Shown here: in pieces, positions 1 through 57,870 of the stretch
How positions within the stretch are numbered: position 1 is the stretch's first letter
How the letters are laid out: the number at the start of each line of letters is the position of its first letter
Translations under genes and position numbers: made by a program
Assembly: GCA_965203885.1 (NCBI GenBank)
Contig: OZ241920.1
Coordinates: 3,073,476-3,137,475 of the forward strand
Source of the DNA: a bacterium
Lineage (GTDB): Bacteria > JAAXHH01
DNA length: 64,000 bases
Direction of reading: 5' to 3'
The notes under the pieces: generated by a model
The model's database searches: none
Seen by the model: the letters and a program-made list of their open reading frames with translations, nothing else
Told to the model about the DNA's origin: nothing

Positions 1-141
1 GTGTCGCAGGCGCAGATGGTCCTGCCGCCTCCAGGCATGGTGGTTGTGCTCGGTCCGTGTGATGAAATCGTTCGCGCCGGTCCCGGAGCGTGCAGCAAAG
101 ATGCATCGACTACACCGAAGCCGACTTGACTATCTTCTTTA

Positions 142-456
142 CTATCCATCAATGACGCCTAATAACTTCAGTAAACTCCAGAGATTCATATAACCGGCAA
201 AAACCGCCGCTATTATCGCGGAGTGTTTAATGAAAGGAATTTGATTGTCCCAATTTTTAAAACTACCCCAATAGCTTAGAATTAACAAATTTGCCAAAAC
301 TGTAATTGTGTAAACCGGATCTAGTCCGTACACGTACATCAGATCAAGAAACGATGCGGCTGAATCTTCTTGCAATTGACCGGGGTAGGACAGGATGTTC
401 CAAATTGATTCAAACACATCACTTATGGACATAATGGTACATTCGATACTTGTCAC
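142..456 (-). CDS. hypothetical small hydrophobic protein in AT-rich cassette; possible second immunity or orphan cassette ORF
   Basis: 104-aa ORF in a visibly AT-rich block (1-1200) that contrasts with the GC-rich rest of the window; hydrophobic stretches; no recognisable family. Confidence 0.3.
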   Translation of the reverse strand: MTSIECTIMSISDVFESIWNILSYPGQLQEDSAASFLDLMYVYGLDPVYTITVLANLLILSYWGSFKNWDNQIPFIKHSAIIAAVFAGYMNLWSLLKLLGVIDG

Positions 457-862
457 CCTGCCCTCTCCCTGTTCGTATTACCGATCGGCAAAAGAAAAAC
501 CGGTAGCTTTCTCATGATCCAGTAGCCTCTCATTGTTTCGAGGCAAACGCCAGCAATCGGTTTCTGAACTACTTGCCATCAAACGAGTGTGAGGAAAGAG
601 GACACATGTTTGAACTTTCGCCTATCTGGATGTCTCATTTTATGGAGCCTGCACATCGGGGGAGTCGTGATAACTGAAGTCAATTATACCCACAATCCGT
701 AGCAGGCTCAACAAGCTGAAAAAAGCACTACCACACACTATAGTGGCTTGATAGTGATAACACCACTTTCTCAGAATACGTCATCATGTACGAGGACCGT
801 GTGCCCATAACATGATAAAGTCAGTTACACAAAATCCGTGACAGACCCGACAGACCCCAAAC

Positions 863-1114
863 TTAAAGCCGCACTAACCTAAGATGGTTTATCAAAATGT
901 CTCGATCATGCCCTTGCTTCTCTTCAGTTAACTCATCACCTGCCCACGAAGGAGTCATCAAATGATCATGATTCGGTACTTTGCCCTGCCTTAATAGTTT
1001 CAGCCTATACTCCAAAAGCTCAAGGCCTTCTTCATCAAAGCAGACAACGACTTCATCTATCTCCCAATCTGCAGTATTGCATTCCTTGCTAGGTGTTACT
1101 TCGACGGTTAGCAT
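863..1114 (-). CDS. putative immunity protein for the adjacent RHS C-terminal toxin
   Basis: 83-aa acidic ORF immediately downstream (same strand) of the RHS C-terminal tip, AT-rich like the toxin tip; the position matches polymorphic-toxin/immunity architecture. Confidence 0.35.
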   Translation of the reverse strand: MLTVEVTPSKECNTADWEIDEVVVCFDEEGLELLEYRLKLLRQGKVPNHDHLMTPSWAGDELTEEKQGHDRDILINHLRLVRL

Positions 1115-1200
1115 ATTGTCCTCATTCTCCTGTAAAGTACTTTTTCTTTTCTAAAGGTCCTCTGTAACGTTTGTACCGATTGACATCGACATGAGTTGGT

Positions 1201-1593
1201 TCACCAGATCTGTTGTTTACATCTATGTGAAATGAGCGACCCGTTTAGCGTCGTGGTTCGGCTGGCAACCTTTAGTCCTTTAGTTACTACTTTCCACAGT
1301 ATCCTCCCATCCGGATCCACATATTTCAGCGGATTATTGGCGGTATAGGCATACGGGCTGATCCCCGGGTACTCATTCTGCATGGAATCCGGCCGCAGGA
1401 ACCTGCCCGTGTCGTTAGCGTACGACCTTTCCAGCATATAGTCAAGACGGGACTCGGCGTCTCTCTCGTGGCCGGTATACCGGAACCTGGTGGCGTCGGT
1501 GCCGCGCTCCTGGTGCCATCGCGCTCCTGTTCGGCCCTCCAAGCACCGCCGTCCAGGTCCGACGCTCGGCCGCTCGCCTGGTCGAGACCGCAT
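1201..1593 (-). pseudogene. orphan/truncated RHS (YD-repeat) protein fragment: end of RHS repeat-associated core plus variable C-terminal toxin tip
   Basis: Translation contains 'RYTGHERDAESRLDYMLERSYANDTGRFLRPD' (the conserved RHS-core 'RYTGKExD...YYxARYYDPxxGRF' region) and 'NNPLKYVDPDGR' (the DPxG[RL] core boundary), followed by a short non-conserved C-terminal tail. The ORF has no upstream YD-repeat region. GC drops from genome-like in the core-encoding part to AT-rich in the tip. Confidence 0.6.
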
Positions 1594-5753: not shown

Positions 5754-7199
5754 ATGTCAAAGCGAAACGCCGCGGTCATCCTCTATGCCGCGCTGCTCGC
5801 CGCGAGCGCGCTCCAGGTCCTCCAGTCGATCGTCGTCGCCCATTTCTTCGACCCGGAATACCTGGCCCCCTACCGGTACGGCATCCTGGCCGCCGGGTTC
5901 GCGTACCTCTTCGCCGCCGGGCTGATCGAGAGCGTCTTCTACTTCATCTCGGGGAAATACGCCCCGGAAGCCCGCAGGTACGCGGGGAACACCCTGGCCG
6001 GCTGCGTGGCGGTCTTCCTGGCCCTCCTCCTGCTGTTCCACCTGCTCGTCAAGCCCTACCTGCTCGTCCACACGGAGCTGGGACCCTATCTCCGGGAGGT
6101 GGGCGCCTACCTCCTGATCGCCCTGTTCCTCTTCGTGAACGTGGCCGCCCACAACGTCCTGGTGGGGACCGGCCGCACGGCCGCCGCCAGCGGGCTCCGC
6201 CTGTTTCAGTACCTGCTGCGCGTCTCGGCCGTCGCCGCCGCGCTTTTCTCCGGGCAGATCTCGTCCATCTACGGACTCATCGTGCTGATCGTGCTCCTGG
6301 AGGCGTTCCAGACGCTCCTCTACGGACTCGTCCTCCTCGGCGGGAAACAGCTGTCCTTCCGGCTACGGGGCATCGAGGCCGGGGCCCAGTACCGCTACGC
6401 CCTGGGACTGGGCGTCGCCGGGTTCGTTCCCTTCATCAACGCCAGCCTGGACAAGATCATGATCAGCGCCTTCCTGGGCGCCTCGAGCTTCGCGGTCTAC
6501 AGCGTGTCGGCCATCGAGCTGCCCATCGCCGGCATCCTGATGAGCGTGTTCGGGTCGGTGCTCTTCTCCACCTACGTGGGACACGCCGAAAGCGGCGATC
6601 ATCGGTCCATGGCGGCCCTGTGGCGCAAGTGCTCGACCTGCGGCATGATCGCCATCGTCCCCGCGGGGATCTTCGTCTTTCTCTTCTCCGACGTGCTGTA
6701 CCGGCTCATCCTCCCGGACGCCTACTTCGAGGGACACCGGGTCCTGGGTATCTACGCGCTGCTCCTCCTGCTCCGCTTCAACAGCCCGGACGTGCTCGCC
6801 CGGGCCCTCAACCGGAACGCCGTCATCGTCCAGGCCGCCGCCGCCTCGCTGATCGTCAACGTGGCGGGCAACCTGGTCTTCATCCCGGCCTTCGGCCTCT
6901 GGGGCGCGGCCCTGGCCACACTGTGCGGCACAGCCGCCGGATGGATCTACTACCTGGCCCGGTACGCCCGGCTGCTGAAGCAACCCGTCAGCGCGCTCCT
7001 CCCCTGGAAGCCCTACGTCCTCCTGACCGCCATTTCGGCGGTCTTCTTCGGCGCGGCCAGGTGGACCCTCGACCGGGTCGAGGTCAGCGCCGCCCTGGCC
7101 GTCCTGGGCATGGCGGCCTATCTCTGGTACGCCTTCCGGCTGCTGGACCGGCCGGAGAAGGAGTACGTGCGGGGCCTGGTGAGAAGGATAGGATTGTAA
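5754..7199 (+). CDS. polysaccharide biosynthesis protein / Wzx-like flippase (MOP superfamily)
   Basis: In-frame ATG 5754 inside track ORF 4359-7199 (the 5' part of that ORF is out-of-frame read-through over the aminotransferase); ~12 predicted TM helices, typical Wzx/PST layout. Confidence 0.7.
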   Translation: MSKRNAAVILYAALLAASALQVLQSIVVAHFFDPEYLAPYRYGILAAGFAYLFAAGLIESVFYFISGKYAPEARRYAGNTLAGCVAVFLALLLLFHLLVKPYLLVHTELGPYLREVGAYLLIALFLFVNVAAHNVLVGTGRTAAASGLRLFQYLLRVSAVAAALFSGQISSIYGLIVLIVLLEAFQTLLYGLVLLGGKQLSFRLRGIEAGAQYRYALGLGVAGFVPFINASLDKIMISAFLGASSFAVYSVSAIELPIAGILMSVFGSVLFSTYVGHAESGDHRSMAALWRKCSTCGMIAIVPAGIFVFLFSDVLYRLILPDAYFEGHRVLGIYALLLLLRFNSPDVLARALNRNAVIVQAAAASLIVNVAGNLVFIPAFGLWGAALATLCGTAAGWIYYLARYARLLKQPVSALLPWKPYVLLTAISAVFFGAARWTLDRVEVSAALAVLGMAAYLWYAFRLLDRPEKEYVRGLVRRIGL

Positions 7200-7339
7200 T
7201 TTTTTCGCAGGTTTTGTATTTAATCTCCGACTGGTACTATATTGACAGTGCATTTGAATGAATGTATTGGTCGAATATCGCCATAGGACCTTCATCGGGC
7301 CGCCCGTACAAATCCCCTTTCAATTCCTGGAACCGAAAA

Positions 7340-7510
7340 CATGTCTACGAGCAACAACAAGAAAGCGCAGATAAAGGTTCACAGCACCGTATTCGGCGTA
7401 CAGCGTATAGACAGAAACGAGTTCACCAGAAGCAAGAAGGCCATGGACACCATCCGTAAATTCATGGAACGTGATCACAAGTTTCAGAAACGAGCGCACG
7501 GAAAGTGAGT
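7340..7510 (+). CDS. small basic hypothetical protein (56 aa), low-GC
   Basis: ATG at 7340, stop TGA 7508-7510, 3 bp before the next ATG (7513); below the ORF-track size cutoff; translation MSTSNNKKAQIKVHSTVFGVQRIDRNEFTRSKKAMDTIRKFMERDHKFQKRAHGK. Confidence 0.25.
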
Positions 7511-7512
7511 AG

Positions 7513-8253
7513 ATGTCCTTCAGTATTTTCGCACTACCCCTCCTTGCCGGCTACCTGTTCCTAATCTGCTGTCACAATTACCGTTACGAAATCCTCAGAG
7601 CATCCGGCTACCATGTTTTTTTGAAATCCGGCATCGCCGGACTGGCTCTGTTCGTGTTGTCATACCTTCAAGTTCGCATGCTATCGTTATACTCACTTGA
7701 TTACATATGGACGTTCTTCAATCTCAATGAAATCTCAGCAACTTGCTTTTTAAGTATGCTTACGGGCGTTTGGAGTGCGCTCATTTTCAATCTGTTCAGA
7801 GACAAAGACTCCTCAATACGAAAGAGCGCACATGAAAACGGAGCATTTACAGAAATCTTGTTAAGAGATGCAATGCGTAATGTAGATCTGGTTTCTATCA
7901 CGACCAAAAGCAGGAAGTATTATGTTGGGTTTGTTTTTGAGACCGGACTGGAAAGCAAAGGCGGTGAAGGAGATTTATCGCTTATTCCTGTGGCGAGTGG
8001 ATACAGGGAAGAAGATTCATTGAATCTCAATCTCAATCTGAACTACATTTCCGTATACAGGGACGTTTATAAAGACGAGATTAACTCCTTTGTAGAGAAT
8101 GAATTGAAAATTGAGGAAACAGAACTGATCGAGTTCCTTTCAATGCTTGTAGAACCGTATTTTCGAGTGGCTGTACCCAAGACGGAAGTCGCTTCCGTCA
8201 GGTATTTCGATTATGACATTTACGACAGATTTCACTCGGACGACCTTAAATAG
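7513..8253 (+). CDS. hypothetical membrane protein (three N-terminal TM helices plus ~150-aa soluble domain), low-GC, no recognisable family
   Basis: 246-aa ORF in a ~1.1-kb AT-rich insertion between GC-rich flippase and GT2 genes; hydrophobic helices at ~5-25, 38-58, 75-95. Confidence 0.5.
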   Translation: MSFSIFALPLLAGYLFLICCHNYRYEILRASGYHVFLKSGIAGLALFVLSYLQVRMLSLYSLDYIWTFFNLNEISATCFLSMLTGVWSALIFNLFRDKDSSIRKSAHENGAFTEILLRDAMRNVDLVSITTKSRKYYVGFVFETGLESKGGEGDLSLIPVASGYREEDSLNLNLNLNYISVYRDVYKDEINSFVENELKIEETELIEFLSMLVEPYFRVAVPKTEVASVRYFDYDIYDRFHSDDLK

Positions 8254-8292
8254 GTAAGCGAATCTGTAATTACCCTGATTTCGTATACGGAA

Positions 8293-9216
8293 ATGAACCC
8301 TGCCGAACCCCACGTAACCATCGTCATACTCAACCTGAACCGGGAATCGGACACGCTGGAGTGCCTGGAGTCCGTCGCGCGCATGACCTACCCGTCCTTT
8401 TCGGTCGTGGTCGTGGACAACGGATCGACCGACGGGTCGCCGGACGCCATCGAGGGCTGGGGACGGGAGAACCTGCCCCTGGCACTCATTCGCAACGCCG
8501 ATAACCGGGGTTTCGCCGGGGGCGGCAACCAGGGCATGCGCCACGCGCTGGCGGCCGGCACCGATTACGTGTTCCTGTTGAACGACGATACGGTGGTAGA
8601 TCCCGACGTATTGGATATCCTCGTTCGAGCGGCGGAACGTTCCGGCGATATCGGCATGGTGGGTCCCAAGATATACCAGTATGGAAAGGGCAAGATACTC
8701 GACTCGGCGGGTACGCGTACGATACCGTGGCTGGCCCAGGGGTTCCTCGTCGGCCACGGGGAAGAGGACCGGGGCCAGTACGATGCCACGGCCGAGATGC
8801 CCTACATCACGGGGACGGCGCTCCTGGTCAAGCGCGCCGTGCTGGAGCAGGTCGGACTGATGGATGAGGACTATTTTTGCTACTTCGATGACTTCGACTG
8901 GGGAATGCGGACGCGGGAAGCCGGTTACAAACTCTATCTGGAGCCCAGGGCGGTGATCCGCCACAAGGGGACGCAGACCATCGGTTTAAACAGTCCATTC
9001 TATATGCTTCACATGGTGCGCAGCAGGATTCTGTTCGCGAGAAAACACGTGCCGCACCTGCCGTTTCTGTTCGCGTTCCTGCCTTACCTTTTTCTGTATC
9101 GGTATCTACGTCCGCTCGCTATCTTGGTCATCCGCCGCAGGTGGACCCACCTGGGCGCGCTCCATCGCGGGATCCGGGAGGGATTCGCCGCCCGGATCAC
9201 GTCGGGCAACGGTTGA
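8293..9216 (+). CDS. family 2 glycosyltransferase (GT-A fold)
   Basis: 'VTIVILNLNRESDTLECLESV...VVVDNGSTDGS' and 'LLNDDTVVDPD' DxD region, typical GT2. Confidence 0.8.
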   Translation: MNPAEPHVTIVILNLNRESDTLECLESVARMTYPSFSVVVVDNGSTDGSPDAIEGWGRENLPLALIRNADNRGFAGGGNQGMRHALAAGTDYVFLLNDDTVVDPDVLDILVRAAERSGDIGMVGPKIYQYGKGKILDSAGTRTIPWLAQGFLVGHGEEDRGQYDATAEMPYITGTALLVKRAVLEQVGLMDEDYFCYFDDFDWGMRTREAGYKLYLEPRAVIRHKGTQTIGLNSPFYMLHMVRSRILFARKHVPHLPFLFAFLPYLFLYRYLRPLAILVIRRRWTHLGALHRGIREGFAARITSGNG

Positions 9217-9291
9217 AGGGAACGGTTGAAGGGAACGACTGAAGGCACCGGTTTGATACACCAGTCGTGTCCTTCGTTCATGGCGCGGCAA

Positions 9292-9362
9292 CAGACCGGG
9301 CAGACCGTACTGACCCAGCAGACCGGGCAGACCGGGCAGACCATACAGACCGTATAGACCGT
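9292..9362. repeat. 9-bp microsatellite (cagaccggg-like unit x ~8, imperfect) in GT2-yfhO intergenic region
   Basis: Read directly: cagaccggg cagaccgta ctgacccag cagaccggg cagaccggg cagaccata cagaccgta tagaccgtt. Confidence 0.85.
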
Positions 9363-9374
9363 TAAAGGGCATTC

Positions 9375-11870
9375 ATGGCGAAGAAACAACCACATACGCG
9401 ACCCGATCGGCGCAGAACCGGCGGAGCGGACAGAACCCGCGGCTCGGCCAGGGACCGGCGGGAACGCTCGGCGCGCACGGAACGCACGGCACGAACCTTG
9501 CATCCGTACGTCCAGGATGCCTTGTTCTGCCTGGTGATCGCGGTGTTGGCCATCTTCGTTTACCGCGGCTATATCATCGAAGGCAAGATGGACATCCGGC
9601 CAGATTTCATTGGCCAGGCCATTCCCTTCGACCGCTTCGCGCAGGACTTCGCAAGCCGGTCCGGCGAAACGCCCCTCTGGTACCCCCACATCTTCGGCGG
9701 CATGCCCTTCCAGGCCAGCGGCACCTATCACCATCTGCAGTACAGCTTCGAAGCCCTGGTCAACGCCGTCCTGCCGGACGGGCTCATCGGCGCGCTGCAC
9801 GGCCGCTTCTTCTTCCACCTGCTCCTCGGCGCGGTCTCCATGTTCTTCCTGGCGCGGGCCCTGTCGCTCTCGCGGCCCGCGTCTTTCGTCGCCGCGGCGG
9901 CCTTCGTGTTCTCCACCCACATGATGGCCACGGAACACGCGAACCGGTTCATCTGCTTCATGCACGTCCCCCTCGTCTTCCTGGCCGCCTACCGCGTATT
10001 CGATCGCGGCAGGGTGTTCGACATGGTATTGCTCGGCGGCGCCTTCGGCTCGCAGTTGTGTTCCTTTCATCCCCAGATCGCCTTCTACACGGCCATGCTG
10101 ATCGGCCTGTACGCCGCGTACGCCGTGATCAACGACCTGCGGGACCGGGCGCCCGCCGGCATCATGCTGAGGAAATCCGGTCTTTTCGCGGGCGGAATCG
10201 TCCTGGCCCTGGCCGTCGCGGCGGTGCTCGTGCTGCCCATGCAGGAATACGCGCAGTATTCCGTCCGGGGCCTCTCCGTCGGCGGCAGCGGCGTCAACGC
10301 CCCCTTCGCCACGAGCTGGTCGTTCCCGCCCATCGAAGTGCTGACCTTCCTCATCCCATCCTTCGCCGGGTTCGGCGGGCTCTTCTACTGGGGGGACATG
10401 CCCTTCACGGACTTTCCCAACTACCTGGGCGTCGTCGTTTTCGTGCTGGCGGTATCGGGCGTAATCCTTCGCCCTTCGCGCATGACCGCCTTCCTCGTCC
10501 TGGCGGCCGCGCTGGCGCTCCTGGTCTCCTTCGGGCGGCACCTGCCCCCCGTATCCTACGTCATGCTCCACTTCGTCCCCTTCTTCGCCAAGTTCCGCGC
10601 GCCGGTCATGATCCTGGTGATCGTGCAGTTCGCGGCCGCCCTGCTGGCGGGATACGGCGTGCACGCGCTGATCGAACGGATCCGCGCGGGCCGGGACAGT
10701 CTGAGGCGCTTCGCGACGCGGCTGTGCTGCGTGGCCGGCGGGGTGCTCCTGCTGGTCCTGGTCCTGACCGTGTTCGAGTCCTCCTTCCAGTCCTTCATGA
10801 CGGGCGTCTACGTACAGGCGGACGCGGCCCACGGTTCGCGCGCGGGCCTCCTGGACAACGCGGATTACCACGCCCGGCTCAACGCCATGCGTTTCGGCCT
10901 GCTCATGGCCGACCTGTGGCTCATGACGCTGTTCCTCTGCGCGGCGGCCGCGCTGCTCTTCGCCACCCGCAAGGCGGGCCCGGCGCTGTTTGCCGCCGGC
11001 GTGAGCGCACTCCTCGCCGTCGACCTGCTGCTCGTGGCCTCGCGGGTCGTGAACCCCGAAGACGATCCCGCGCGGATCCAGGCCCATTACGCCGCCCGCG
11101 AAAACGAGATCGTGAAGGCCCTGGAGGAAGACACCGGCCTGTACCGCATCCTCCCGCTGTCCGAGTTCTCGTCCAACGAGTACGGATACTTCGGCATCTC
11201 CAGCATCGGCGGCTACCACGCCGCCAAACTCGGTATCTACCAGGAACTCATGGACCGGGTGGGGTTCAGCTCCTTTCCGGTTTTGAACATGCTCAATACC
11301 CGTTACCTTGTGTCCCGGCAGCCTCTACCGGAATCCGGGCTCTCGCCCGTGGCCGAGTCCGACGGCGGATACCTCTACCGGAACGACGCCGCGCTGCCGC
11401 GGGCCTTCCTGGTGGACAGCGTGCAAGTCGTCGCCGGGAAGGACGCCGTCTTCGAAGCGTTGAACGAGCCCGGGTTCGAACCCGGCGAGTACGCGATCCT
11501 GGAGCAGCCCGTCCGGGAGGCGTTGGGGCCGCTGGGCGAATCCTCCGTGGAGATCACGGCGCACACGCCCCATCGCATCGAGGTGGCGGTGGAGGCCGAC
11601 GCGCCGGGCCTGCTGGTGCTCAGCGAGATCTACTATCCGGCCGGGTGGAGCGCCACGATCGACGGCGAGCCCGCCGAGATATACAAGACCAACTACGTGC
11701 TGCGCTCCGTGGCCGTCCCGGCGGGCCGTCATGAAGTCGTCATGACCTTTGCCCCGTCGAGCTTTGCCACGGGACTCCTCGTGAGCCGGATCGCCGGCAC
11801 GCTGGTCCTGGCCGGGTTGATCGCCGCGGGCGCGATGCGCATCAGAAAGCGCCTGAAGGCCGGGGCCTGA
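9375..11870 (+). CDS. yfhO: YfhO family membrane glycosyltransferase (GT-C fold)
   Basis: 831 aa; many N-terminal TM helices (e.g. 'LWYPHIFGGMPFQASGTYHHL', 'FFLARALSL'), large C-terminal extracytoplasmic domain ending in a TM anchor; adjacent GtrB-like GT2 reproduces the known CsbB-YfhO / GtrB-GT-C pairing. Confidence 0.75.
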   Translation: MAKKQPHTRPDRRRTGGADRTRGSARDRRERSARTERTARTLHPYVQDALFCLVIAVLAIFVYRGYIIEGKMDIRPDFIGQAIPFDRFAQDFASRSGETPLWYPHIFGGMPFQASGTYHHLQYSFEALVNAVLPDGLIGALHGRFFFHLLLGAVSMFFLARALSLSRPASFVAAAAFVFSTHMMATEHANRFICFMHVPLVFLAAYRVFDRGRVFDMVLLGGAFGSQLCSFHPQIAFYTAMLIGLYAAYAVINDLRDRAPAGIMLRKSGLFAGGIVLALAVAAVLVLPMQEYAQYSVRGLSVGGSGVNAPFATSWSFPPIEVLTFLIPSFAGFGGLFYWGDMPFTDFPNYLGVVVFVLAVSGVILRPSRMTAFLVLAAALALLVSFGRHLPPVSYVMLHFVPFFAKFRAPVMILVIVQFAAALLAGYGVHALIERIRAGRDSLRRFATRLCCVAGGVLLLVLVLTVFESSFQSFMTGVYVQADAAHGSRAGLLDNADYHARLNAMRFGLLMADLWLMTLFLCAAAALLFATRKAGPALFAAGVSALLAVDLLLVASRVVNPEDDPARIQAHYAARENEIVKALEEDTGLYRILPLSEFSSNEYGYFGISSIGGYHAAKLGIYQELMDRVGFSSFPVLNMLNTRYLVSRQPLPESGLSPVAESDGGYLYRNDAALPRAFLVDSVQVVAGKDAVFEALNEPGFEPGEYAILEQPVREALGPLGESSVEITAHTPHRIEVAVEADAPGLLVLSEIYYPAGWSATIDGEPAEIYKTNYVLRSVAVPAGRHEVVMTFAPSSFATGLLVSRIAGTLVLAGLIAAGAMRIRKRLKAGA

Positions 11871-14339: not shown

Positions 14340-15338
14340 TTAAGCCTGATCCTTCGGTTTACGGACGATCATGGCCTGGCTCACCGTGGACAGCCCCAGC
14401 AGCATGGCCGCCAGATCGATCAGGCAGCTTACCGACTTGGTAATGAAGTTTTCGTAGCTGATCAGGCTGTACATGAATCCGGTCGAACCGGGCGCGTGGG
14501 GTTCCATGCCCAGCTTGATGCGGAGACTCCCGGGCCAGTGGCTCGCTTCGACGATGGCGCCGTGGGATTCTATCTCCAGGCCGCATCCGCTTACGCAGGC
14601 CGCGAGGGCCTTGCGGGAGAACAGGTGGAAGTGCCTGGGGATACTCAGCGCCATCCAGTGGTTCCGGAAGAAGTAACGGGATAACCCGTGCAGGTCGGGC
14701 GTCTCGAGATACAACACGCCTCCCGGCACGAGATGGTCCGAAATCCACCGGACCAGCCGGCCGGGATCGGTCACGTGCTCGATGACCTGCTGGCAGATGA
14801 CGGCATCGAACCGTTCCCCGCATTGCACGTCCTCGATCGGGCCTTCCATGAGGGTCACGCCGCGGCCGGAAAGGTAGGACCGGGCTTCCGGCTCGAACTT
14901 GAGGTCGTTGGCGAAGAGTTCGAGAGGAAAAGGGGCGAGTTCCGCCAGATAGGCGAGATTGCCGCCGAATCCCGCGCCGATATCGAGCACCCGGGAACCG
15001 GCCCGGAGATTCGCGATCACTTTCCGGATCCATCCCCGGTCGAGCACGTTGAGCTTCAGCCACCTTAAGGGGGCGAAGGCGGGGTACTCGATTTCCGTGA
15101 CGCGCACAATGTAGTCGCGGGGATAGATGCGGTCTATGTCCGCCATCCGGACCCTCGGCGACAGGTACACGTGTCCGCAATCCGCGCACGCGACGAACCG
15201 GAACCGGTTGTCGCAGGTGCGGTACTCGAAGTCGTATCCCTCGAAGACCGGCCGCGGCTGCGTCTCGGCGCTTCCGCACATCGCGCAGGCGACCGGCACA
15301 AGTTCCAGTATATGACCAGAACCGATTTTACTATCCAT
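14340..15338 (-). CDS. class I SAM-dependent methyltransferase with N-terminal Cys4 zinc-ribbon (sugar C-methyltransferase-like)
   Basis: 'CAMCGS...CADCGHV' zinc ribbon followed by 'VLDIGAGFGG' motif I; start taken at the second Met of ORF 14340-15377. Confidence 0.75.
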   Translation of the reverse strand: MDSKIGSGHILELVPVACAMCGSAETQPRPVFEGYDFEYRTCDNRFRFVACADCGHVYLSPRVRMADIDRIYPRDYIVRVTEIEYPAFAPLRWLKLNVLDRGWIRKVIANLRAGSRVLDIGAGFGGNLAYLAELAPFPLELFANDLKFEPEARSYLSGRGVTLMEGPIEDVQCGERFDAVICQQVIEHVTDPGRLVRWISDHLVPGGVLYLETPDLHGLSRYFFRNHWMALSIPRHFHLFSRKALAACVSGCGLEIESHGAIVEASHWPGSLRIKLGMEPHAPGSTGFMYSLISYENFITKSVSCLIDLAAMLLGLSTVSQAMIVRKPKDQA

Positions 15339-15389
15339 ACAACTCCGTCTGTTCCAGATACCTGGATCTACAGTCAAGACGACCTGATC

Positions 15390-16262
15390 TCATCCCGGTT
15401 TTTTGCAGAGTATATACAGTCCCATGGCCACTTCGTGAGCGCGTTCGTTCTTTACCAGAACGTAGTCTGCAAACTTGAATGGCCACAGCAGCACAAGGGG
15501 CACAAGCCTGAAAAGACCGTTAACGTATCGGTTGTTTGAGAACGAAAAAAGTTCGAACCAGTCAGCTGCAATTGCTGTGAAAGCGGATCCAGGACCGACA
15601 CATACGCCTTTCTCAACTACCTTGTACTTATCAAACAGAATCTTCAGGCCTTCGATTGTGTACCGTTGAAAGTCATTTGGATATGCATGAAAATGTGCTA
15701 TGAATGGTAGTTCCGTATAGACATACCCTCCTGGTTTCAACACACGAAACATTTCATCAACCACACGATTCGGATCCCTCACGTGCTCCAGCACAGCAGT
15801 ATTGTATATTAGTTTGAAGGTGTTGTCTTCGAAGGGAATCTCTAATGCGGAAGCGACGACATCCACATTTTCAAACCGATCGATATCGAGATTAACCTGA
15901 TTAGTGGCAGATGCAGTGGTTCCTGAACCTACTACAAGTCTTAACTCTTCCTCGTATTTCGACCAGATTTCTGCAACACGAGGGGTAATCGGCAGGTGTA
16001 AGGTACTTCCGATACCTTTCTTTAGTACGTTAAGGCACTTTTCCAACAATCCCGTTTTGAACTCCGACCGCATTTGATCGGCTTTCTCGAAATCGTAATG
16101 CAAACGCTGATGTTCGGCTTCCTCCAGAAGGACCGGTACCTCATCTATCACTGGGAATCTGTGATCTGAATCCCGACAAGCAAAGAGGTCGTTCGATATT
16201 CTGGTCAGATTACCGTGACACCTCGGACACCGGAGAAGGTGCTCGAATCGTTCGAGATTCAT
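15390..16262 (-). CDS. SAM-dependent methyltransferase (Methyltransf_11-like) with N-terminal Trm112-like zinc ribbon; lower GC than neighbours
   Basis: 'LLRCPRCHGNL...FACRDSDHRFPVIDEVPVLL' Trm112-like; 'LEHVRDPNRVVDEMFRVLKPGGYVY' motif post-II; visibly lower GC than the adjacent methyltransferase. Confidence 0.75.
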   Translation of the reverse strand: MNLERFEHLLRCPRCHGNLTRISNDLFACRDSDHRFPVIDEVPVLLEEAEHQRLHYDFEKADQMRSEFKTGLLEKCLNVLKKGIGSTLHLPITPRVAEIWSKYEEELRLVVGSGTTASATNQVNLDIDRFENVDVVASALEIPFEDNTFKLIYNTAVLEHVRDPNRVVDEMFRVLKPGGYVYTELPFIAHFHAYPNDFQRYTIEGLKILFDKYKVVEKGVCVGPGSAFTAIAADWFELFSFSNNRYVNGLFRLVPLVLLWPFKFADYVLVKNERAHEVAMGLYILCKKPG

Positions 16263-16494
16263 GACTGAATACCATCGAAAACGCGGTCAGTTCGAGCAGC
16301 GCTCCCCCACATCGCGCAGGCTACGGGCGTCAACTCCAGCTCGACACCGCTGTCAATGGGGTTCATGGGATGGACCGGCCGTGTTGTGGGGACCCGGCGC
16401 GCCCCGAGGAGGACTCCAGCCGGCGCGCCCCGAGAGGGACTGCTGCCGGCGCACCTCGGGCAGGCAATTGCTTCCGGGCGCCCCGGACGGATGG

Positions 16495-28510: not shown

Positions 28511-29770
28511 TCAGACGATCAGCATGGCGTCGCCATAGCTGTAGAACCGGTATCTCTCCCTGACCGCTTCCTCGTAAGCGGAAAGGATCAGCTCCCTTCC
28601 CGCGAAGGCGCTCACCAGCAGCAGGAGCGTCGACTTCGGGAGATGGAAATTGGTCAGCAGCGCGTCGACGAGCCGGAATTCGAAAGGGGGATAGATGAAA
28701 CACCGGGTGCGGCCCTCGTACCGGCGCGGTTCGAGTACGGGACCGGCCGGTCCGGCGCCACGAGGCGCTCCATCGGCGCCACCGGCCGCGATGGTCTCAA
28801 GTGCGCGCACGGTCGTGGTCCCCACGGCGACCACGCGCCCCCTGCTCCGCCTTCCCAGAATCGCTTCCGCTTCGTGGGCCTCCATGCGGTAGTATTCCGC
28901 GTCCATTTCGTGGTCCTCCACGGCATCGGAACGGATGGGCTGGAACGTGCCCGGTCCGACGTGGAGCAGGACCGGCACCACGGCCGTGCCCCGCGACCGG
29001 ATGCGGTCCAGCAGGGGCGCCGTGAAATGCAGTCCGGCCGTGGGCGCGGCCACGGCGCCGTATTCCTCCGCGTAGACCGTCTGGTAACGGTCCCGGTCGG
29101 ACGCGTCCGGATCGCGGCGAATGTAGGGGGGCAGCGGCGTGCGGCCCACCCGCTCGATGACCCGGAAAACTTCCGCGTCCCCCTCGAAACGGACCTGTCG
29201 TATATCCGGACCGGGCTCGTCCTCCACGACGGCGGCCAGCGCGCCGTCCTCCAGTTCGATGCGCGTCCCCCTGGCGAGCCGTGCGCCCGGCTTCAGCAGC
29301 GCTTCCCAGCGGGCGGGCGACGCCTCGTCCACCGGCCCTGTTTCGCCGACCGGCCCTGCGTCGTCCACCGGCGCCGCTTCGCCCGCCGATCCTGCCTCGT
29401 CGACCGGGCGGACCAGCACGACTTCGACCTTCCCGCCGGTTTCCGGCCGCGTGCCCAGCAGCCTGGCCGGCATCACCCGCGTCCGGTTGAGCACCAGCGT
29501 GTCGGCCGGGGCCAGGTAGTCCGCAATATCACGGAACGTCCGGTGTTCGATCGCCCCGCCGCGCCGGTGCACCACCATCAGCCGGGACGCGTCGCGGGGT
29601 TCGGCGGGGTACTGGGCGATCAGGTCTTCCGGCAGGGTATAGTCGTATTCGGCTAGATTCACGGATGATCGCAAGGTCTGCTGCGCGGAACGCTCCGGGC
29701 GGCCGTCACTCAAACGCTCCGGGCGGCCGCCATGCTCATATCGGCCGGGAACGCTCCGGACGGCCGTCAC
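28511..29770 (-). CDS. queA: S-adenosylmethionine:tRNA ribosyltransferase-isomerase (true start probably internal)
   Basis: '[29 protein letters not shown]', '[10 protein letters not shown]'; contains a Pro/Ala/Gly-rich low-complexity insertion. Confidence 0.85.
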
Positions 29771-30801
29771 TCGAACAGGCCGGCCTGCGGCTTCGTGTTC
29801 GCGGTGAACCCCAGGTGCCCGTACGCCAGCTCGGTGGCCACCCTGCCCCGGGGCGTGCGATTGATCAGGCCCTGGACGATGAGGTAGGGCTCGTACACCT
29901 CCTCGAGCGTTCCGCTCTCCTCGCCCACGGCCACGGCCAGCGTGTTCAGGCCCACGGGGCCGCCCGCGTATTTCTCGATGACGGTCGTGAGGATCAGCCG
30001 GTTCATGTCGTCCAGGCCCATGTGGTCCACGCCCAGCATTTCGAAGGCGGCCTTCGCGGTCTCCCCGTCGATGCGGCCGTCCCCCTTGACCTGGGCGTAG
30101 TCCCGCACCCGCTTCAGGTACCGGTTGGCGATGCGGGGCGTTCCCCGGGACCGCCGGGCGATCTCCATCGCTCCGCCGTCATCGGCCTCCACGCCGATGA
30201 TCTCGGCCGCCCGGTTGACGATCAGGAAGAGTTCCTCCGGCGTGTAGAAATCGAGTCGGATGGGGATGCCGAAACGCGCCAGGAGCGGCGCCGTCAGAAG
30301 GCCCGTGCGCGTCGTCGCGCCGACCAGGGTGAACCGGTCCAGGGTGAGGGACAGGGATCGGGCGCTCGGTCCCCGGTCCACCAGGATGTCGATCTTGAAA
30401 TCCTCCATGGCGGCGTACATGTGCTCTTCCACGACGTTGTTCAGCCGGTGGATCTCGTCGATGAAGAACACGTCTCCCGGCTGCAGGTTGGTCAGGAGTC
30501 CCGCCAGGTCGGCCGGCCGTTCCAGCACCGGTCCCGCGGTCTGCCGGATCTCCACGCCCATCTCATTGGCCAGAATGGTGGCCAGCGTGGTCTTGCCCAG
30601 TCCGGGCGGTCCGTGAAGCAGCACGTGGTCGATGTGGTTCTCGCCGCGGGTCTTCGCCGCCTCGATATACAGCTCCAGCTCCGCCTTGGCCTTTTCCTGG
30701 CCGGGGAATTCATCGAACCGGCCCGGCCTCAGCGCGCGGTCGAACTCCGTATCCTCGTCAAACCGGTCGGGGTCGGTCAACGGGTAGTCCCGCTCGTCCA
30801 T
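29767..30801 (-). CDS. ruvB: Holliday junction branch migration ATPase RuvB
   Basis: '[12 protein letters not shown]' Walker A, conserved RuvB. Confidence 0.95.
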
Positions 30802-52750: not shown

Positions 52751-52826
52751 GTGGAGATAACCGGGATCGAACCGGTGACCTCCGGCTTGCAAAGCCGGCG
52801 CTCTCCCAGCTGAGCTATATCCCCGG
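52751..52826 (-). tRNA. tRNA-Ala (anticodon TGC)
   Basis: Reverse complement 'ggggatatagctcagctgggagagcgccggctttgcaagccggaggtcaccggttcgatcccggttatctcca'; anticodon loop cTTTGCAa. Confidence 0.93.
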
Positions 52827-52833
52827 CTTTCGG

Positions 52834-52911
<78 letters not shown>

Positions 52912-56171: not shown

Positions 56172-56666
56172 TCATCCAGGCTTCATTTCGGGCGCGCCGT
56201 CGTCCCCCGGCGAAATGACCACGGCCTCCTCGCCGAGATGGCCCGCGATGGTCTGCGACAACTCGTTCAGGTCGGTCCGGCAGAAACCCGTGTTGCTGTC
56301 CAGGATCCCGCCGCTGTCATCCATGAGGAACCACGTCGGCACGTTCGTCAGTCCGAAATCCGAGGAGGCCCAGTGGGTGGCGTCGTACACGTTCTCGAAG
56401 GTCGCGCCGTGCTCTTCCATGAACGCCCGCGTGTCCTCCGGCGTGTCCTGCGAGACGCCCACTACCCGGAATCCACCGTTGCCGCCGTAGGCCTGGTGGA
56501 TCTTCTCGAAATAGGGGGCGCTGAACTTGCAGGTCCCGCAGCCCACCTTGTAGAAGACCGCCAGCAGCCAGCCGCCGTCCGCCTGGTCGCCCAGCGACGT
56601 CGACTGTCCGTCCGCGTCTTCCAGCGTGACTTCCGGGGCCGCGACCCCGGCTTCCAGGAACGCCAT
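56172..56666 (-). CDS. thioredoxin-like thiol-disulfide oxidoreductase (TlpA/AhpC-TSA redoxin family)
   Basis: 'FYKVGCGTCKF' CxxC active site in a thioredoxin fold. Confidence 0.7.
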   Translation of the reverse strand: MAFLEAGVAAPEVTLEDADGQSTSLGDQADGGWLLAVFYKVGCGTCKFSAPYFEKIHQAYGGNGGFRVVGVSQDTPEDTRAFMEEHGATFENVYDATHWASSDFGLTNVPTWFLMDDSGGILDSNTGFCRTDLNELSQTIAGHLGEEAVVISPGDDGAPEMKPG

Positions 56667-56999
56667 GAATTACTCCCGTATGGGTTGGGATATGGTATTA
56701 AGAAGTACTCGATTACGACATGCTTAGCAGGTGACAACGATCGTTTTTTGTACGAATGTGCTCTAATACCTATATTAATCGGATACACGAAAAGTGTCAA
56801 CGATCCTGTGGTATCGTAACTGGAACGGATCGCCAAGTTTTGAATGCCCATATCGAGCTATGGAAGCGCTCGTCCGAACCATTAAAGGCTGGGAAGCTAG
56901 CTCAAAACTACCAAGAAACCTCGAATCTCTTTGAAAGATCAATGTTTAGACTATATTACGAATTAAACGGCCAAGGTCTTCTACACGCGGAGTTTAATC

Positions 57000-57209
57000 A
57001 TGGCGAAGCTGCAATCGACGACTTTCCAAACTGAGATTCCCACCGGTCTGGCTTCGCAGGCCCAAAAACTGGTCGAGGCCGGCTGGTTTCGTGATCTCGA
57101 CGAACTCGTCCTGGACGCACTGCGACGTTTTCTGGAGTCCCATCGTGAAGAATTGATGGAAGATTCTATTCGACAAGACCTCGAGTGGGGTCTGACAGGC
57201 GATGAATAA
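57000..57209 (+). CDS. type II antitoxin, UPF0175-like (partner of DUF3368 PIN toxins)
   Basis: 69 aa; 'LVEAGWFRDLDELVLDALRRFLESH' resembles UPF0175 antitoxins; overlaps the downstream PIN gene by 8 bp. Confidence 0.55.
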   Translation: MAKLQSTTFQTEIPTGLASQAQKLVEAGWFRDLDELVLDALRRFLESHREELMEDSIRQDLEWGLTGDE

Positions 57210-57699
57210 ACCGACGCCAAGCGTTGTATGCGATGCCGGTCCCCTGATACATCTCGACGAACTCGACGCACTGTCGTTGTTGAACGATTTCGATCCCGTA
57301 CTTGTGCCCGAACAAGTCGGGCAAGAGGTATCCCATCATCGTCCGGGCGTGCTTGACGATTCCGTCTTGCGCTGTCAACAGGTCGGTGTCGTCATACCCT
57401 CGGATCCATCCTTTCAAATCCTGGCGCAAACCCTATCTCTGGATATCGGTGAACAAGCGGCATTGAAACTGATGCAAGGGCATCCTCAAGCTATCTTCCT
57501 GACGGATGACGCCGCCGCCCGGCTGGCTGCGTTCACCCTCGGCTATCGCGTGCATGGAAGTATTGGTATTCTGGTACGTGCTATTCGACGCCATCAGCTG
57601 TCAAGAGACGAAGTTAAAGAGATACTATGTACGATTCCCCGCAGGTCTACGCTCCACATCCGCCCGGATTTACTTGTGGATATAATCAAAAAGCTGTGA
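57202..57699 (+). CDS. PIN-domain toxin (DUF3368 / PIN_3-like, VapC-type)
   Basis: 'VVCDAGPLIHLDELDAL' N-terminal PIN acidic motif; 'IFLTDDAAARLAAFTLG' second acidic motif; length ~165 aa. Confidence 0.7.
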   Translation: MNKPTPSVVCDAGPLIHLDELDALSLLNDFDPVLVPEQVGQEVSHHRPGVLDDSVLRCQQVGVVIPSDPSFQILAQTLSLDIGEQAALKLMQGHPQAIFLTDDAAARLAAFTLGYRVHGSIGILVRAIRRHQLSRDEVKEILCTIPRRSTLHIRPDLLVDIIKKL

Positions 57700-57870
57700 T
57701 TCGCAGCTTGATGCGTTCTTCTCTCCCAGGCATTCGTCTATCCGTTTGATATCCCGCCAACGGCCTGGTTACTGTCGATCATATCCCTGCGCCATCAACA
57801 GTAAATCGTCGTTCTATTTTTGATCTTTGAGCCCGTTGAGTCGTCTTATTCTACGTAACGATTCGCTTTT

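What the first reader, a model, noticed from the sequence alone, without database searches (positions are those of the whole stretch)
7200..8290. AT-rich ~1.1-kb insertion carrying a 56-aa basic ORF and a 3-TM orphan protein inside the glycosylation cluster
Between the GC-rich flippase (ends 7199) and GT2 (starts 8293) lies a strongly AT-rich segment of foreign composition. It contains a sigma70-like TTGACA (7242-7247), a 56-aa lysine/arginine-rich ORF (7340-7510, below the track cutoff), and 3 bp later a 246-aa protein with three N-terminal TM helices and a soluble domain matching nothing I recognise. The tight two-gene arrangement, compositional anomaly and placement inside a surface-polysaccharide locus (a common landing site for phage-defence or phage-receptor-modifying cargo) make this a candidate horizontally acquired small-protein/membrane-effector pair. 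It could be abortive-infection-like, a membrane toxin plus regulator, or a novel glycan-modifying accessory.
Basis: partly seen in the sequence, partly recalled or inferred. Interest (0 to 1): 0.6.

Follow-up and report, generated by a model that had tools for sequence, protein, structure and literature searches.

The report
Mobile small-protein plus membrane-protein cassette
The AT-rich 1.1-kb segment is a real, anciently acquired two-gene cassette (a 55-aa basic protein plus a 246-aa three-helix membrane protein) from a large, unnamed, untested family that rides on prophages, plasmids and islands, sits in the known P2-phage defence hotspot, and is most likely a phage-exclusion module.

Summary
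Observation confirmed. Window ~7195-8290 has GC 0.43 (GC3 0.49-0.64) against flanks of 0.62-0.67 (GC3 0.79-0.93). It holds a 55-aa basic ORF (7341-7508) and, 4 nt later, a 246-aa ORF (7513-8253).

It is an insertion. Three relatives at 84-86% identity have flippase abutting GT2 with nothing between. There is no target-site duplication.

It is old and selected: a sister species carries it at the same divergence, with omega 0.09 and 0.11. The large gene was lost twice independently (677-bp and 143-bp deletions) while the small ORF stayed intact.

The pair is conserved in about 140 loci fetched across many phyla, and divergence of the two proteins is correlated (Mantel r = 0.85). The large family has 3,265 clusters, all "hypothetical". 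It matches phrog_3630 and weakly Pfam DUF6338.

In enterobacteria the pair lies in the P2-like gpA-portal hotspot beside bSEFIR/TIR, Septu, IetAS, retron and GmrSD genes. It is also on a lambdoid Stx prophage and an IncC plasmid. Rousset et al. 2022 catalogued it as unnamed entries #43 and #57; no test is recorded.

The model gives three TM helices plus a cytoplasmic beta domain, weakly Sm-like.

Best reading: a candidate phage-exclusion or abortive-infection cassette with a membrane effector and a small partner. Function is inferred, not shown. It is not a glycan enzyme.

The parts
7195..8290 (+). Inserted low-GC segment of about 1.09 kb. The boundaries are approximate, to within a few bases.
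   Evidence: GC is 0.43 against 0.62-0.67 in the flanks. Relatives L148, L149 and L151 have flippase followed directly by GT2 with no homologue of either ORF. The insertion replaced the last few codons of the flippase. There is no TSD or inverted repeat.
7200..7340 (+). AT-rich leader (GC 0.43) upstream of the small ORF. It contains TTGACA at 7242-7247 and is a possible cassette-borne promoter region.
   Evidence: The sequence is conserved in L006 and L076. No full sigma-70 promoter is found by the scan. No Rfam family matches.
7341..7508 (+). Small partner gene: 55 aa, basic (net about +10). Predicted beta-hairpin (residues 13-23) followed by helices (25-53).
   Evidence: Translation is. Omega is 0.086 against L006. 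The family has 239 database homologues of 53-94 aa. It lies directly upstream of the large gene in nearly all loci. AlphaFold pLDDT is 70. It is retained intact in both lineages that lost the large gene.
7513..8253 (+). Large gene: 246 aa. Three TM helices (about 1-23, 34-62, 73-96) followed by a cytoplasmic helix-plus-beta domain. Invariant motifs are K135-x-Y137-x-G139 and P159-x-x-S162-G163-Y164-R165.
   Evidence: Translation is. The phrog_3630 match is E = 1.5e-24 over the full length. The profile search finds 3,265 clusters. The AlphaFold model has pLDDT 75.9. Foldseek's 50 best PDB hits are Sm/LSm chains (or an Sm-based cage), at E about 0.02. Omega is 0.07-0.11.
7616..8292 (+). Segment deleted in same-species strains L076 and L077. 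This is a presence/absence polymorphism of the large gene.
   Evidence: blastn shows L076 and L077 (97-98% identical) join window 7615 to 8293 at an ATG microhomology. That leaves 34 codons of the large gene and an intact small ORF.
7981..8123 (+). Segment deleted in the sister-species lineage (L001-L003, L006). The deletion is 143 bp, shifts the frame and removes the PxxSGYR motif.
   Evidence: blastn window against L006 and L001. The truncated 162-aa product is P0001, seen on 6 contigs.

Best explanation
WHAT IT IS. The segment is a self-contained, mobile two-gene cassette. It was inserted between the flippase and GT2 genes in an ancestor of this Gemmatimonadota lineage. It has been kept under purifying selection, and its large gene is polymorphic for loss.

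MOST LIKELY FUNCTION. It is most likely a phage-exclusion or abortive-infection type module.

THE LARGE PROTEIN. It inserts in the inner membrane with its N terminus outside and three TM helices. Its conserved beta-rich domain, weakly Sm-like, faces the cytoplasm.

THE SMALL PROTEIN. It is basic, is likely translationally coupled to the large one, and is its cytoplasmic partner.

PROPOSED MECHANISM (INFERRED).
1. The cytoplasmic domains oligomerise into a ring.
2. The ring bundles the TM helices into a latent pore or an entry-blocking complex.
3. The small protein holds this complex in check, like an antitoxin, or couples it to a phage cue.
4. Infection releases the block and the membrane is permeabilised, or phage DNA entry is blocked.

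SHOWN HERE.
- The segment is an insertion.
- Both ORFs are under purifying selection.
- The pair is conserved and the two proteins diverge together.
- The cassette is carried on mobile elements and lies in the P2 defence hotspot.
- The large gene has been lost repeatedly while the small ORF was kept.

INFERRED ONLY.
- Membrane topology.
- Oligomerisation.
- Pore or exclusion activity.
- The role of the small protein.
- Any anti-phage phenotype.
For: INSERTION. Empty sites occur in L148, L149 and L151. GC and GC3 contrast sharply with the flanks.

REAL, SELECTED GENES. Omega is 0.086 (small) and 0.07-0.11 (large), with dS equal to that of the flanking GT2.

CONSERVED PAIR.
- An upstream small ORF is present in about 60 of 66 genomic loci and forms one family.
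- All 70 viral-contig copies with an intact start also have it.
- Small ORFs from MAGs, viral contigs and enterobacteria link up.
- Mantel r = 0.85 between the divergence of the two proteins.
- There is no conserved third gene: 367 neighbours fall into 298 clusters.

MOBILITY AND DEFENCE ASSOCIATION.
- In Salmonella phages SEN4/SEN5, Klebsiella phage ST15-OXA48phi14.1 and an E. coli O157:H16 prophage, the pair lies between replication gene A and the portal gene.
- That locus is the experimentally defined P2 defence hotspot (PMC9122126).
- De-replicated neighbours in viral loci include bSEFIR x4, HEC-05/06, PtuA, IetA/IetS, a retron RT, SspE/GmrSD, PIN_12 and TIR.
- Rousset Table S5A shows the pair with changing companions: SieB, PIN_12, DUF262/DUF1524.
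- It also occurs next to hokD on a lambdoid Stx1d prophage and on an IncC plasmid.
- It occurs in a MAG island with two AbiEi/AbiEii pairs and transposases, and near Type I R-M genes in several MAGs.

COST OR TOXICITY SIGNATURE.
- There were two independent deletions of the large gene in one small clade, with the small ORF kept.
- About 16 of about 68 loci have a broken large gene, and about 13 of those keep an intact small ORF.
- No locus has an intact large gene and no small ORF.

ARCHITECTURE. Three TM helices plus a beta domain. Foldseek's 50 best PDB hits are Sm/LSm chains (or an Sm-based cage).
Against: - No experiment exists for any family member. Rousset et al. list it (#43, #57) but report no test of it.
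- No PADLOC model matches either protein, in any version tried.
- The P2 hotspot also carries non-defence cargo, such as partition systems and CDT toxin (PMC9122126).
- Many MAG contexts are housekeeping or adhesin genes.
- The defence enrichment around MAG copies was not tested against a genome-wide background.
- The Sm-like call is weak. Foldseek E is about 0.02 and a profile comparison with an Sm protein was not significant (P = 0.19).
- Oligomerisation could not be modelled.
- The asymmetry in gene loss is only suggestive. The large gene is a four-fold bigger target, the loci were found through the large protein's N terminus, and some MAG frameshifts may be assembly errors.
Confidence: 0.5

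Rival explanations
1. It is a selfish addiction module of the toxin-antitoxin kind. A membrane toxin and a small antitoxin stabilise prophages, plasmids and islands, with no dedicated anti-phage role.
For: The two genes are tightly coupled. The cassette is carried on prophages, an IncC plasmid and islands. The putative toxin gene was lost repeatedly while the small gene was kept, and the large gene is never found without the small one. It lies next to hokD in one prophage.
Against: The gene order and sizes fit no described TA type, and neither protein matches a TA family in Pfam, NCBIfam or PADLOC. The chromosomal copy has stayed under purifying selection for dS of about 0.4 at one site, which addiction alone does not need. 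The boundary with defence is blurred, because many TA modules also abort phage infection.
Confidence: 0.2
2. It is other mobile-element cargo that acts at the membrane but is neither defence nor addiction. Examples are an ion or stress channel, a lysis-timing or superinfection-signalling factor, or a host-fitness (lysogenic-conversion) factor.
For: The architecture of three TM helices plus an Sm-like beta domain recalls MscS-type channels. That comparison is from my own knowledge, resting on the fold hits. Many MAG contexts are ordinary metabolic or porin genes. The P2 hotspot also holds non-defence cargo. A DUF6338 gene in P. stutzeri is reported as widely conserved and expressed with small proteins (PMC10433244).
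Against: There is no sequence relation to MscS or to any solved structure and no Pfam channel family matches. The patchy distribution, low GC relative to the host almost everywhere and within-species presence/absence are typical of accessory conflict genes rather than physiology genes.
Confidence: 0.17
3. It is a glycan-cluster accessory. On this reading a membrane protein modifies or regulates the surface polysaccharide made by the surrounding flippase, GT2 and YfhO genes, and may alter a phage receptor.
For: It lies inside a co-directional glycosylation cluster: aminotransferase, flippase, GT2, YfhO, GT2. One other copy (L071) also follows a MatE-family transporter.
Against: There is no homology to glycosyltransferases, acyltransferases, Wzy/Wzz or Gtr proteins. 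No glycan families appear among the commonest neighbours in 140 MAG and 85 viral neighbour proteins. Same-species strains and relatives keep the cluster without the large gene or without the whole insert. A different gene occupies the same junction in L150.
Confidence: 0.04
4. In this genome the insert is a decaying remnant with no function.
For: Close relatives carry deletions of the large gene. No convincing promoter was found.
Against: The window copy is full length and keeps every invariant family residue. Omega is 0.07-0.11 over dS of about 0.4, including the part downstream of the deletion seen in L006. So decay in the relatives is recent, and the window allele is intact.
Confidence: 0.09

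Closest known systems
Unnamed entries #43 and #57 of the P2-like hotspot catalogue (Rousset et al. 2022, Cell Host Microbe, Table S5B; PMC9122126)
   Same: They belong to the same protein family. The family HMM scores #43 at E = 1.9e-48 and #57 protein 1 at E = 8.4e-26. They share the SGYRDKD motif, and #57 is also listed with a 78-aa small partner. They occur 93 and 75 times among 18,150 E. coli P2 loci.
   Different: These are enterobacterial prophage versions only 24-26% identical to the window protein. They were catalogued with a note of '2 TM' and given neither a name nor a recorded test. The window copy is chromosomal, in Gemmatimonadota, and not inside a recognisable prophage.
PHROG phrog_3630 (unknown function) and Pfam DUF6338 (PF19865)
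   Same: The phrog_3630 match covers the full length at E = 1.5e-24. 13 of 70 family representatives hit DUF6338, the best at E = 1.6e-5.
   Different: Neither family has a known function. The window protein itself does not hit DUF6338, and the hits by its relatives are mostly below the Pfam gathering score.
Lambda RexAB, and other defence systems with a transmembrane effector (for example Hydrolase+3TM, RT-nitrilase+1TM and 2TM+1TM+TIR from the P2/P4 hotspots)
   Same: This is a 'works like' comparison. They are prophage-borne multi-gene modules in which a cytoplasmic component controls a membrane protein believed to kill or arrest the infected cell (PMC9122126). They share the hotspot habitat.
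   Different: There is no sequence homology. The AC1 2TM, 1TM and TIR proteins do not match either family HMM. Here no enzymatic or NTPase sensor is present, and the partner is only 55-90 aa.
MscS-type mechanosensitive channels
   Same: This is an architectural analogy from my own knowledge: three TM helices followed by a cytoplasmic Sm-like beta domain that drives heptamer formation.
   Different: There is no detectable sequence relation. MscS chains are not among the 50 listed Foldseek hits. The oligomeric state of this protein is unknown.
Membrane-toxin toxin-antitoxin pairs (for example GhoT/GhoS and Hok-type toxins)
   Same: A small two-gene module with a membrane-active component. The loss pattern, in which the large gene is lost and the small one kept, resembles orphan antitoxins.
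   Different: The putative toxin is far larger and has a folded cytoplasmic domain. There is no homology, and toxicity is untested.

Membership tests
phrog_3630 / this unnamed 3TM family | Full-length profile match, with the invariant motifs K-x-Y-x-G and P-x-x-S-G-Y-R present | tested here: met
   phrog_3630 matches at E = 1.5e-24 over residues 5-242. The window protein carries all invariant columns.
This cassette (small plus large pair) | A homologous small ORF lies immediately upstream on the same strand | tested here: met
   The window 55-aa ORF scores E = 4e-18 against the small-family HMM. The gap to the large gene is 4 nt. The same arrangement holds in genomic, viral and plasmid loci.
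Pfam DUF6338 (PF19865) | A score at or above the Pfam gathering threshold of 26.5 bits | tested here: not met
   The window protein has no hit. 13 of 70 relatives hit at E <= 0.01 (best 1.6e-5); the two whose bit scores were shown (13.9, 18.2) are below threshold. This indicates a remote relationship only.
Known anti-phage defence systems (PADLOC-DB v2.0.0) | An HMM match to a component of a described or candidate system | tested here: not met
   There are no hits for the window proteins or for the phage and MAG homologues at E <= 1.
Anti-phage defence system (operational definition) | Genomic association with known defence genes, or presence in variable hotspots of mobile elements | tested here: met
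   The pair lies in the P2 gpA-portal hotspot. Its neighbours there include bSEFIR, PtuA, IetAS, a retron RT, HEC-05/06, GmrSD and PIN_12. Around MAG copies the association is weaker and was not tested against a background.
Anti-phage defence system (operational definition) | Measured protection against phage on heterologous expression | not testable with these tools
   No experiment is found in the literature searched. Rousset et al. list the family but do not report testing it.
AC1 '2TM + 1TM + TIR' system (Rousset 2022) | Homology to its three proteins | tested here: not met
   The sequences were taken from Table S2A. Neither family HMM hits them.
Sm/LSm-fold domain | Significant structural or profile similarity to Sm proteins | tested here: inconclusive
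   Foldseek's 50 best PDB hits are Sm/LSm chains (or an Sm-based cage) with target-normalised TM-scores up to 0.73, but E is only 0.016-0.065. Model pLDDT in the beta domain is 59-85.
MscS mechanosensitive channel | A match to the Pfam MS_channel family or to solved MscS structures | tested here: not met
   There is no Pfam hit. A profile search against PDB sequences found nothing relevant. No MscS chain is among the 50 listed Foldseek hits.
   There are no such hits at E <= 1.
Toxin-antitoxin module | The large protein is toxic and the small protein neutralises it | not testable with these tools
   There is only indirect evidence. The large gene was deleted twice with the small ORF kept. No intact large gene is found without a small ORF.
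Transposon or IS-type mobile insertion | Terminal inverted repeats, a target-site duplication, or a transposase/integrase | tested here: not met
   There are no boundary repeats. The only tRNAs in the window are at 52.7-52.9 kb. The insert encodes no recombinase.

The most novel reading that the evidence does not exclude
The cassette is a genuinely new anti-phage system, spread from E. coli prophages and plasmids to uncultured Gemmatimonadota, Latescibacterota, Binatia and Dehalococcoidia. In this reading a membrane-anchored ring of Sm-like domains acts both as sensor and as pore, perhaps binding incoming phage nucleic acid or a nucleotide signal at the inner membrane. A 55-90-aa basic partner gates it. 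The system has no enzymatic domain at all.
Probability: 0.3. Interest if true: 0.72.

Novelty: new variant of a known kind. Interest (0 to 1): 0.55.

Why it matters
If the defence reading holds, this is one of the more widespread still-unnamed cassettes in the best-studied defence hotspot. The large family has 3,265 clusters at 50% identity. The E. coli version is on at least 1000 contigs. It accounts for at least 168 of the 18,150 catalogued P2 hotspot loci (entries #43 and #57 together).

It has an unusually minimal make-up: no nuclease, NTPase or signalling enzyme, only a three-TM protein with a small beta-barrel domain and a mini-protein partner. That makes it a tractable model for how a membrane effector is held in check and then triggered.

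It is directly testable, because E. coli alleles with native promoters exist.

For genome annotation, the work links a large set of 'hypothetical' small ORFs, some misnamed 'multidrug ABC transporter ATPase', to a conserved partner gene.

For this genome, it shows that the anomaly in the glycan cluster is hitch-hiking mobile cargo rather than part of the glycosylation pathway. It also documents a within-species presence/absence polymorphism typical of conflict genes.

Tried and rejected
FAMILY SCANS. Pfam, NCBIfam and PADLOC scans of both window ORFs gave nothing. Phage and MAG homologues against PADLOC and Pfam gave only weak DUF6338 hits.

AC1 SYSTEM. I first suspected the Klebsiella-phage arrangement (pair, then a 69-aa ORF, then TIR) was the validated AC1 '2TM+1TM+TIR' system. 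I rejected this. The AC1 proteins are unrelated, and the TIR protein is the stand-alone bSEFIR.

STRUCTURE BY SEQUENCE. A profile search of PDB sequences found nothing. hhalign against a canonical Sm protein was not significant.

BOUNDARIES AND SIGNALS. I found no TSD or inverted repeats at the boundaries, no promoter or terminator above chance and no Rfam family.

LITERATURE. Searches for DUF6338, phrog_3630, Sm-like TM defence and recent P2-hotspot screens found no characterisation.

OTHER.
- The first alignment was too diverse for the genome scan, so I re-ran it with a tighter one.
- The small protein of Rousset #57 did not link to the others by BLAST.
- The glycan-accessory idea was rejected on neighbour statistics and on the empty or deleted alleles.
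Full report
1. THE OBSERVATION

The segment is real. GC in 300-nt windows falls from 0.67-0.69 to 0.40-0.49 between about 7200 and 8290. The segment GC is 0.43 against 0.634 for the window. Third-codon-position GC is 0.64 (small ORF) and 0.49 (large ORF), against 0.79-0.93 in the neighbouring genes.

The ORFs are a 55-aa basic protein at 7341-7508 and, 4 nt later, a 246-aa protein at 7513-8253.

The flanks are a 481-aa weak MurJ-like transporter, a GT2, a YfhO-family protein and a second GT2, all on the + strand. TTGACA at 7242-7247 exists, but no full promoter passes the scan. No Rfam family is present.

2. AN INSERTION, BUT NOT A RECENT ONE

A metagenome scan with the flippase found three relatives at 84-86% nucleotide identity (L148, L149, L151). 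In these the flippase stop is followed within about 5-30 nt by the GT2 start, and tblastn finds neither ORF. These are empty sites.

The insert is about 1.09 kb, at window ~7195-8290. It replaced the last few flippase codons. It has no target-site duplication and no terminal repeats.

In L150 the same junction holds a different GT2-like gene of about 1 kb. So this junction is a recurrent insertion point.

A sister species (L006, a Gemmatimonadota MAG, and L001-L003) is syntenic over about 15 kb at 85-90% identity and carries the insert at the same divergence.

| Comparison with L006 (Nei-Gojobori) | omega | dS |
|---|---|---|
| Small ORF | 0.086 | 0.44 |
| Large ORF, N-terminal part | 0.114 | 0.39 |
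| Large ORF, C-terminal part | 0.069 | 0.76 |
| Flanking GT2 | 0.19 | 0.49 |

So both ORFs encode real proteins, and the insert predates the split of the two lineages.

3. THREE ALLELIC STATES

The window has both genes intact.

The sister species has a 143-bp frameshifting deletion (window 7981-8123) that removes the most conserved motif.

Strains of the same species (L076 on a 400-kb contig, and L077; 97-98% identity) have a 677-bp deletion (window 7616-8292) at an ATG microhomology. It leaves 34 codons of the large gene and an intact small ORF.

So the large gene was lost twice independently while the small gene was kept.

Across the roughly 68 non-enterobacterial loci, the large gene is truncated or fragmented in about 16. 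The small ORF is intact in about 13 of those. No locus has an intact large gene without the small ORF.

This is suggestive of a costly large gene, but it is not proof. The large gene is a four-fold larger mutational target. The loci were ascertained through the large protein. Some MAG frameshifts may be assembly errors.

4. THE PAIR IS A CONSERVED, SELF-CONTAINED CASSETTE

Size of the families:
- A word-indexed search found only 16 homologues of the large protein.
- A full profile search found 3,265 clusters at 50% identity. Of these, 523 have E <= 1e-30, and nearly all are 220-250 aa.
- The small protein has 239 database homologues of 53-94 aa.

Evidence that the two genes belong together:
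- In 65 genomic loci, a small same-strand ORF ends within about 50 nt of the large gene almost everywhere. The loci are mostly MAGs of Latescibacterota, Binatia, Arenicellales, Dehalococcoidia, Acidobacteriota and Gemmatimonadota.
- These small ORFs form one family, with core consensus PKIYV-TxRGxxYVKADELLRSKKAR-xIEKM followed by a polar tail.
- All copies on 70 IMG/VR viral contigs with an intact start have the same arrangement, with gaps of -1 to 13 nt.
- Small ORFs of MAGs, viral contigs and enterobacteria link through core-region BLASTP hits (E from 2e-4 to 1e-8) and an hhalign match (70% probability, P = 4e-5).
- Pairwise divergence of the small and large proteins is tightly correlated (Mantel r = 0.85; 0 of 2000 permutations reach it; 44 loci).

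Nothing else is conserved around the pair. 367 neighbouring proteins fall into 298 clusters. The large gene is lower in GC than its flanks in nearly every host.

5. WHERE IT LIVES

Prophages:
- tblastn against phage genomes hits Salmonella phages SEN4 and SEN5 and Klebsiella phage ST15-OXA48phi14.1, all Peduoviridae.
- In those phages, and in an E. coli O157:H16 P2-like prophage, the pair lies between the replication gene A and the portal gene.
- Rousset et al. 2022 showed experimentally that this locus is a hotspot of anti-phage systems (PMC9122126).

Rousset et al.'s own tables:
- Table S5A lists the E. coli pair (WP_000094764 + WP_000212611) with changing companions: SieB, PIN_12, DUF262/DUF1524.
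- Curated Table S5B contains family members as unnamed entries. #43 has 93 occurrences. #57 has 75 occurrences and is listed with a 78-aa small partner.
- The family HMM confirms both, at E = 1.9e-48 and 8.4e-26.
- Neither entry appears among the tested systems I could read.

Neighbours in the viral loci (de-replicated):
- PADLOC hits include bSEFIR (4), HEC-05 and HEC-06, PtuA, IetA/IetS, a retron RT, SspE, NsnA and Type II methyltransferases.
- Pfam hits include TIR, SEFIR, GmrSD_N, PIN_12 and DUF4145, bounded by portal genes.

Other carriers:
- A lambdoid Stx1d prophage, next to hokD and a beta-family/sce7726 pair.
- An IncC conjugative plasmid.

MAG contexts are mixed:
- One is a clear island with two AbiEi/AbiEii pairs and transposases.
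- One has an Eco57I-type R-M gene and a STAND ATPase nearby.
- Several have Type I R-M genes.
- Others have porins, metabolic enzymes or giant adhesins.

Every database copy is annotated 'hypothetical'. The small protein sometimes carries plainly wrong names.

6. WHAT THE PROTEINS LOOK LIKE

Large protein:
- It has three hydrophobic segments (about 1-23, 34-62 and 73-96).
- Loop 1 is basic (+3/-1) and loop 2 is acidic.
- By the positive-inside rule this predicts N terminus outside and C terminus inside, so the C-terminal domain is cytoplasmic. This is an inference.
- The AlphaFold model has pLDDT 75.9. It shows the three long helices, a helical linker, then a beta-rich domain with inserted helices.
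- Invariant residues cluster in the domain (K135, Y137, G139, P159, S162, G163, Y164, R165, Y178, F232) and at the membrane (G13, Y14, G32-Y33-H34, G43, N93).
- Foldseek's 50 best PDB hits are Sm/LSm chains (or an Sm-based cage), with target-normalised TM-scores up to 0.73. E is only about 0.02.
- A sequence-profile comparison with an Sm protein was not significant.
- I therefore treat 'Sm-like' as a lead, not a finding.

Small protein:
- It is modelled at pLDDT 70 as a beta-hairpin plus a long helix with a basic tail.
- It has no structural match.

Relation to named families:
- phrog_3630, of unknown function, matches at E = 1.5e-24.
- 13 of 70 family representatives weakly match Pfam DUF6338.
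- The only paper that mentions DUF6338 notes such a gene in an operon with small proteins in P. stutzeri (PMC10433244).

7. INTERPRETATION

The evidence fits a mobile, self-contained two-gene cassette of the conflict-gene type.

My best-supported reading, at about 0.5, is a phage-exclusion or abortive-infection module. The large protein would be a membrane effector whose cytoplasmic domain drives assembly. The small basic partner would restrain it or couple it to a phage cue.

| Status | Point |
|---|---|
| Shown | The segment is an insertion |
| Shown | Both ORFs are under purifying selection |
| Shown | The pair is conserved and diverges together |
| Shown | The cassette is carried on mobile elements and occupies the P2 hotspot |
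| Shown | The large gene is lost repeatedly |
| Inferred | Membrane topology |
| Inferred | Oligomerisation |
| Inferred | Pore or exclusion activity |
| Inferred | The role of the small protein |
| Inferred | Any anti-phage phenotype |

Rivals:
- A pure addiction module (0.2).
- Other membrane cargo, such as a channel or a conversion factor (0.17).
- A decaying remnant (0.09). This is contradicted by omega and by the intact motifs.
- A glycan accessory (0.04). This is contradicted by the lack of homology, the neighbour statistics and the relatives that keep the glycan cluster without the large gene or without the insert.

8. NOVELTY

The family is not characterised anywhere I could search. 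It is absent from PADLOC v2.0.0. It has been seen before only as unnamed catalogue entries.

If it is a defence system, it belongs to the known kind of 'prophage-borne module with a membrane effector'. It would be unusual within that kind for its undescribed, enzyme-free architecture and its very broad host range. I therefore rate it a new variant of a known kind.

Interest is moderate (0.55). It is a good, directly testable candidate rather than a surprise, and its function is unproven.

Noticed in passing
window 15294-16300: This is a second, independent low-GC (0.46) insertion. A SAM-dependent methyltransferase gene at 15390..16262 on the minus strand (Methyltransf_11, with a Trm112p-like N terminus) sits next to a paralogous high-GC methyltransferase at 14340..15377. 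It is absent from the sister species L006 but present in the same-species contigs L076 and L077.
   Followed up: partly
window 1-1450: This is a low-GC (0.46) stretch at the window start that is not shared with L006. ORF 863..1114 (minus strand) weakly matches immunity protein Imm32 (E = 2.7e-4). ORF 1201..1593 (minus strand) matches phrog_10385 (E = 2.6e-12). It may be another piece of mobile or conflict cargo.
   Followed up: no
L150:1166-2221 (the junction equivalent to window 7199|8293): In one relative, the same flippase|GT2 junction is occupied by a different GT2-like gene of about 1 kb (GC 0.49, 30% identical to the downstream GT2). The junction is therefore a recurrent insertion point in this glycan cluster.
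   Followed up: partly
window 52751-52911 (minus strand): tRNA-Ala(TGC) and tRNA-Ile(GAT) lie adjacent to each other. This is the usual 16S-23S spacer arrangement, so an rRNA operon probably lies here. Two mildly low-GC stretches at 56600-58000 hold ORFs with no Pfam match.
   Followed up: no
L075:5758-5973 and cluster 4: The 71-aa small partner protein in E. coli and Salmonella is widely annotated as 'multidrug ABC transporter ATPase' or 'YobD (UPF0266)'. These names are impossible for a 71-aa soluble protein. The misannotation appears to have propagated.
   Followed up: no
L152 (Salmonella IncC plasmid pSTY1-2010K-1587, record 29562-30560): The cassette (68 aa + 262 aa) lies in the accessory region of a conjugative IncC plasmid. 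It sits between a 547-aa AAA ATPase with mer genes on one side and a DNA methyltransferase on the other. 25 Salmonella plasmids carry a homologue.
   Followed up: partly
L047 and L046 (Arenicellales MAG OZ243928.1); L035, L065: Some genomes carry two or more copies of the family, in some cases within about 7 kb of each other (for example L047 2278-3000 on the plus strand and 9021-9767 on the minus strand). Candidatus Multivorans genomes have several dispersed copies.
   Followed up: no
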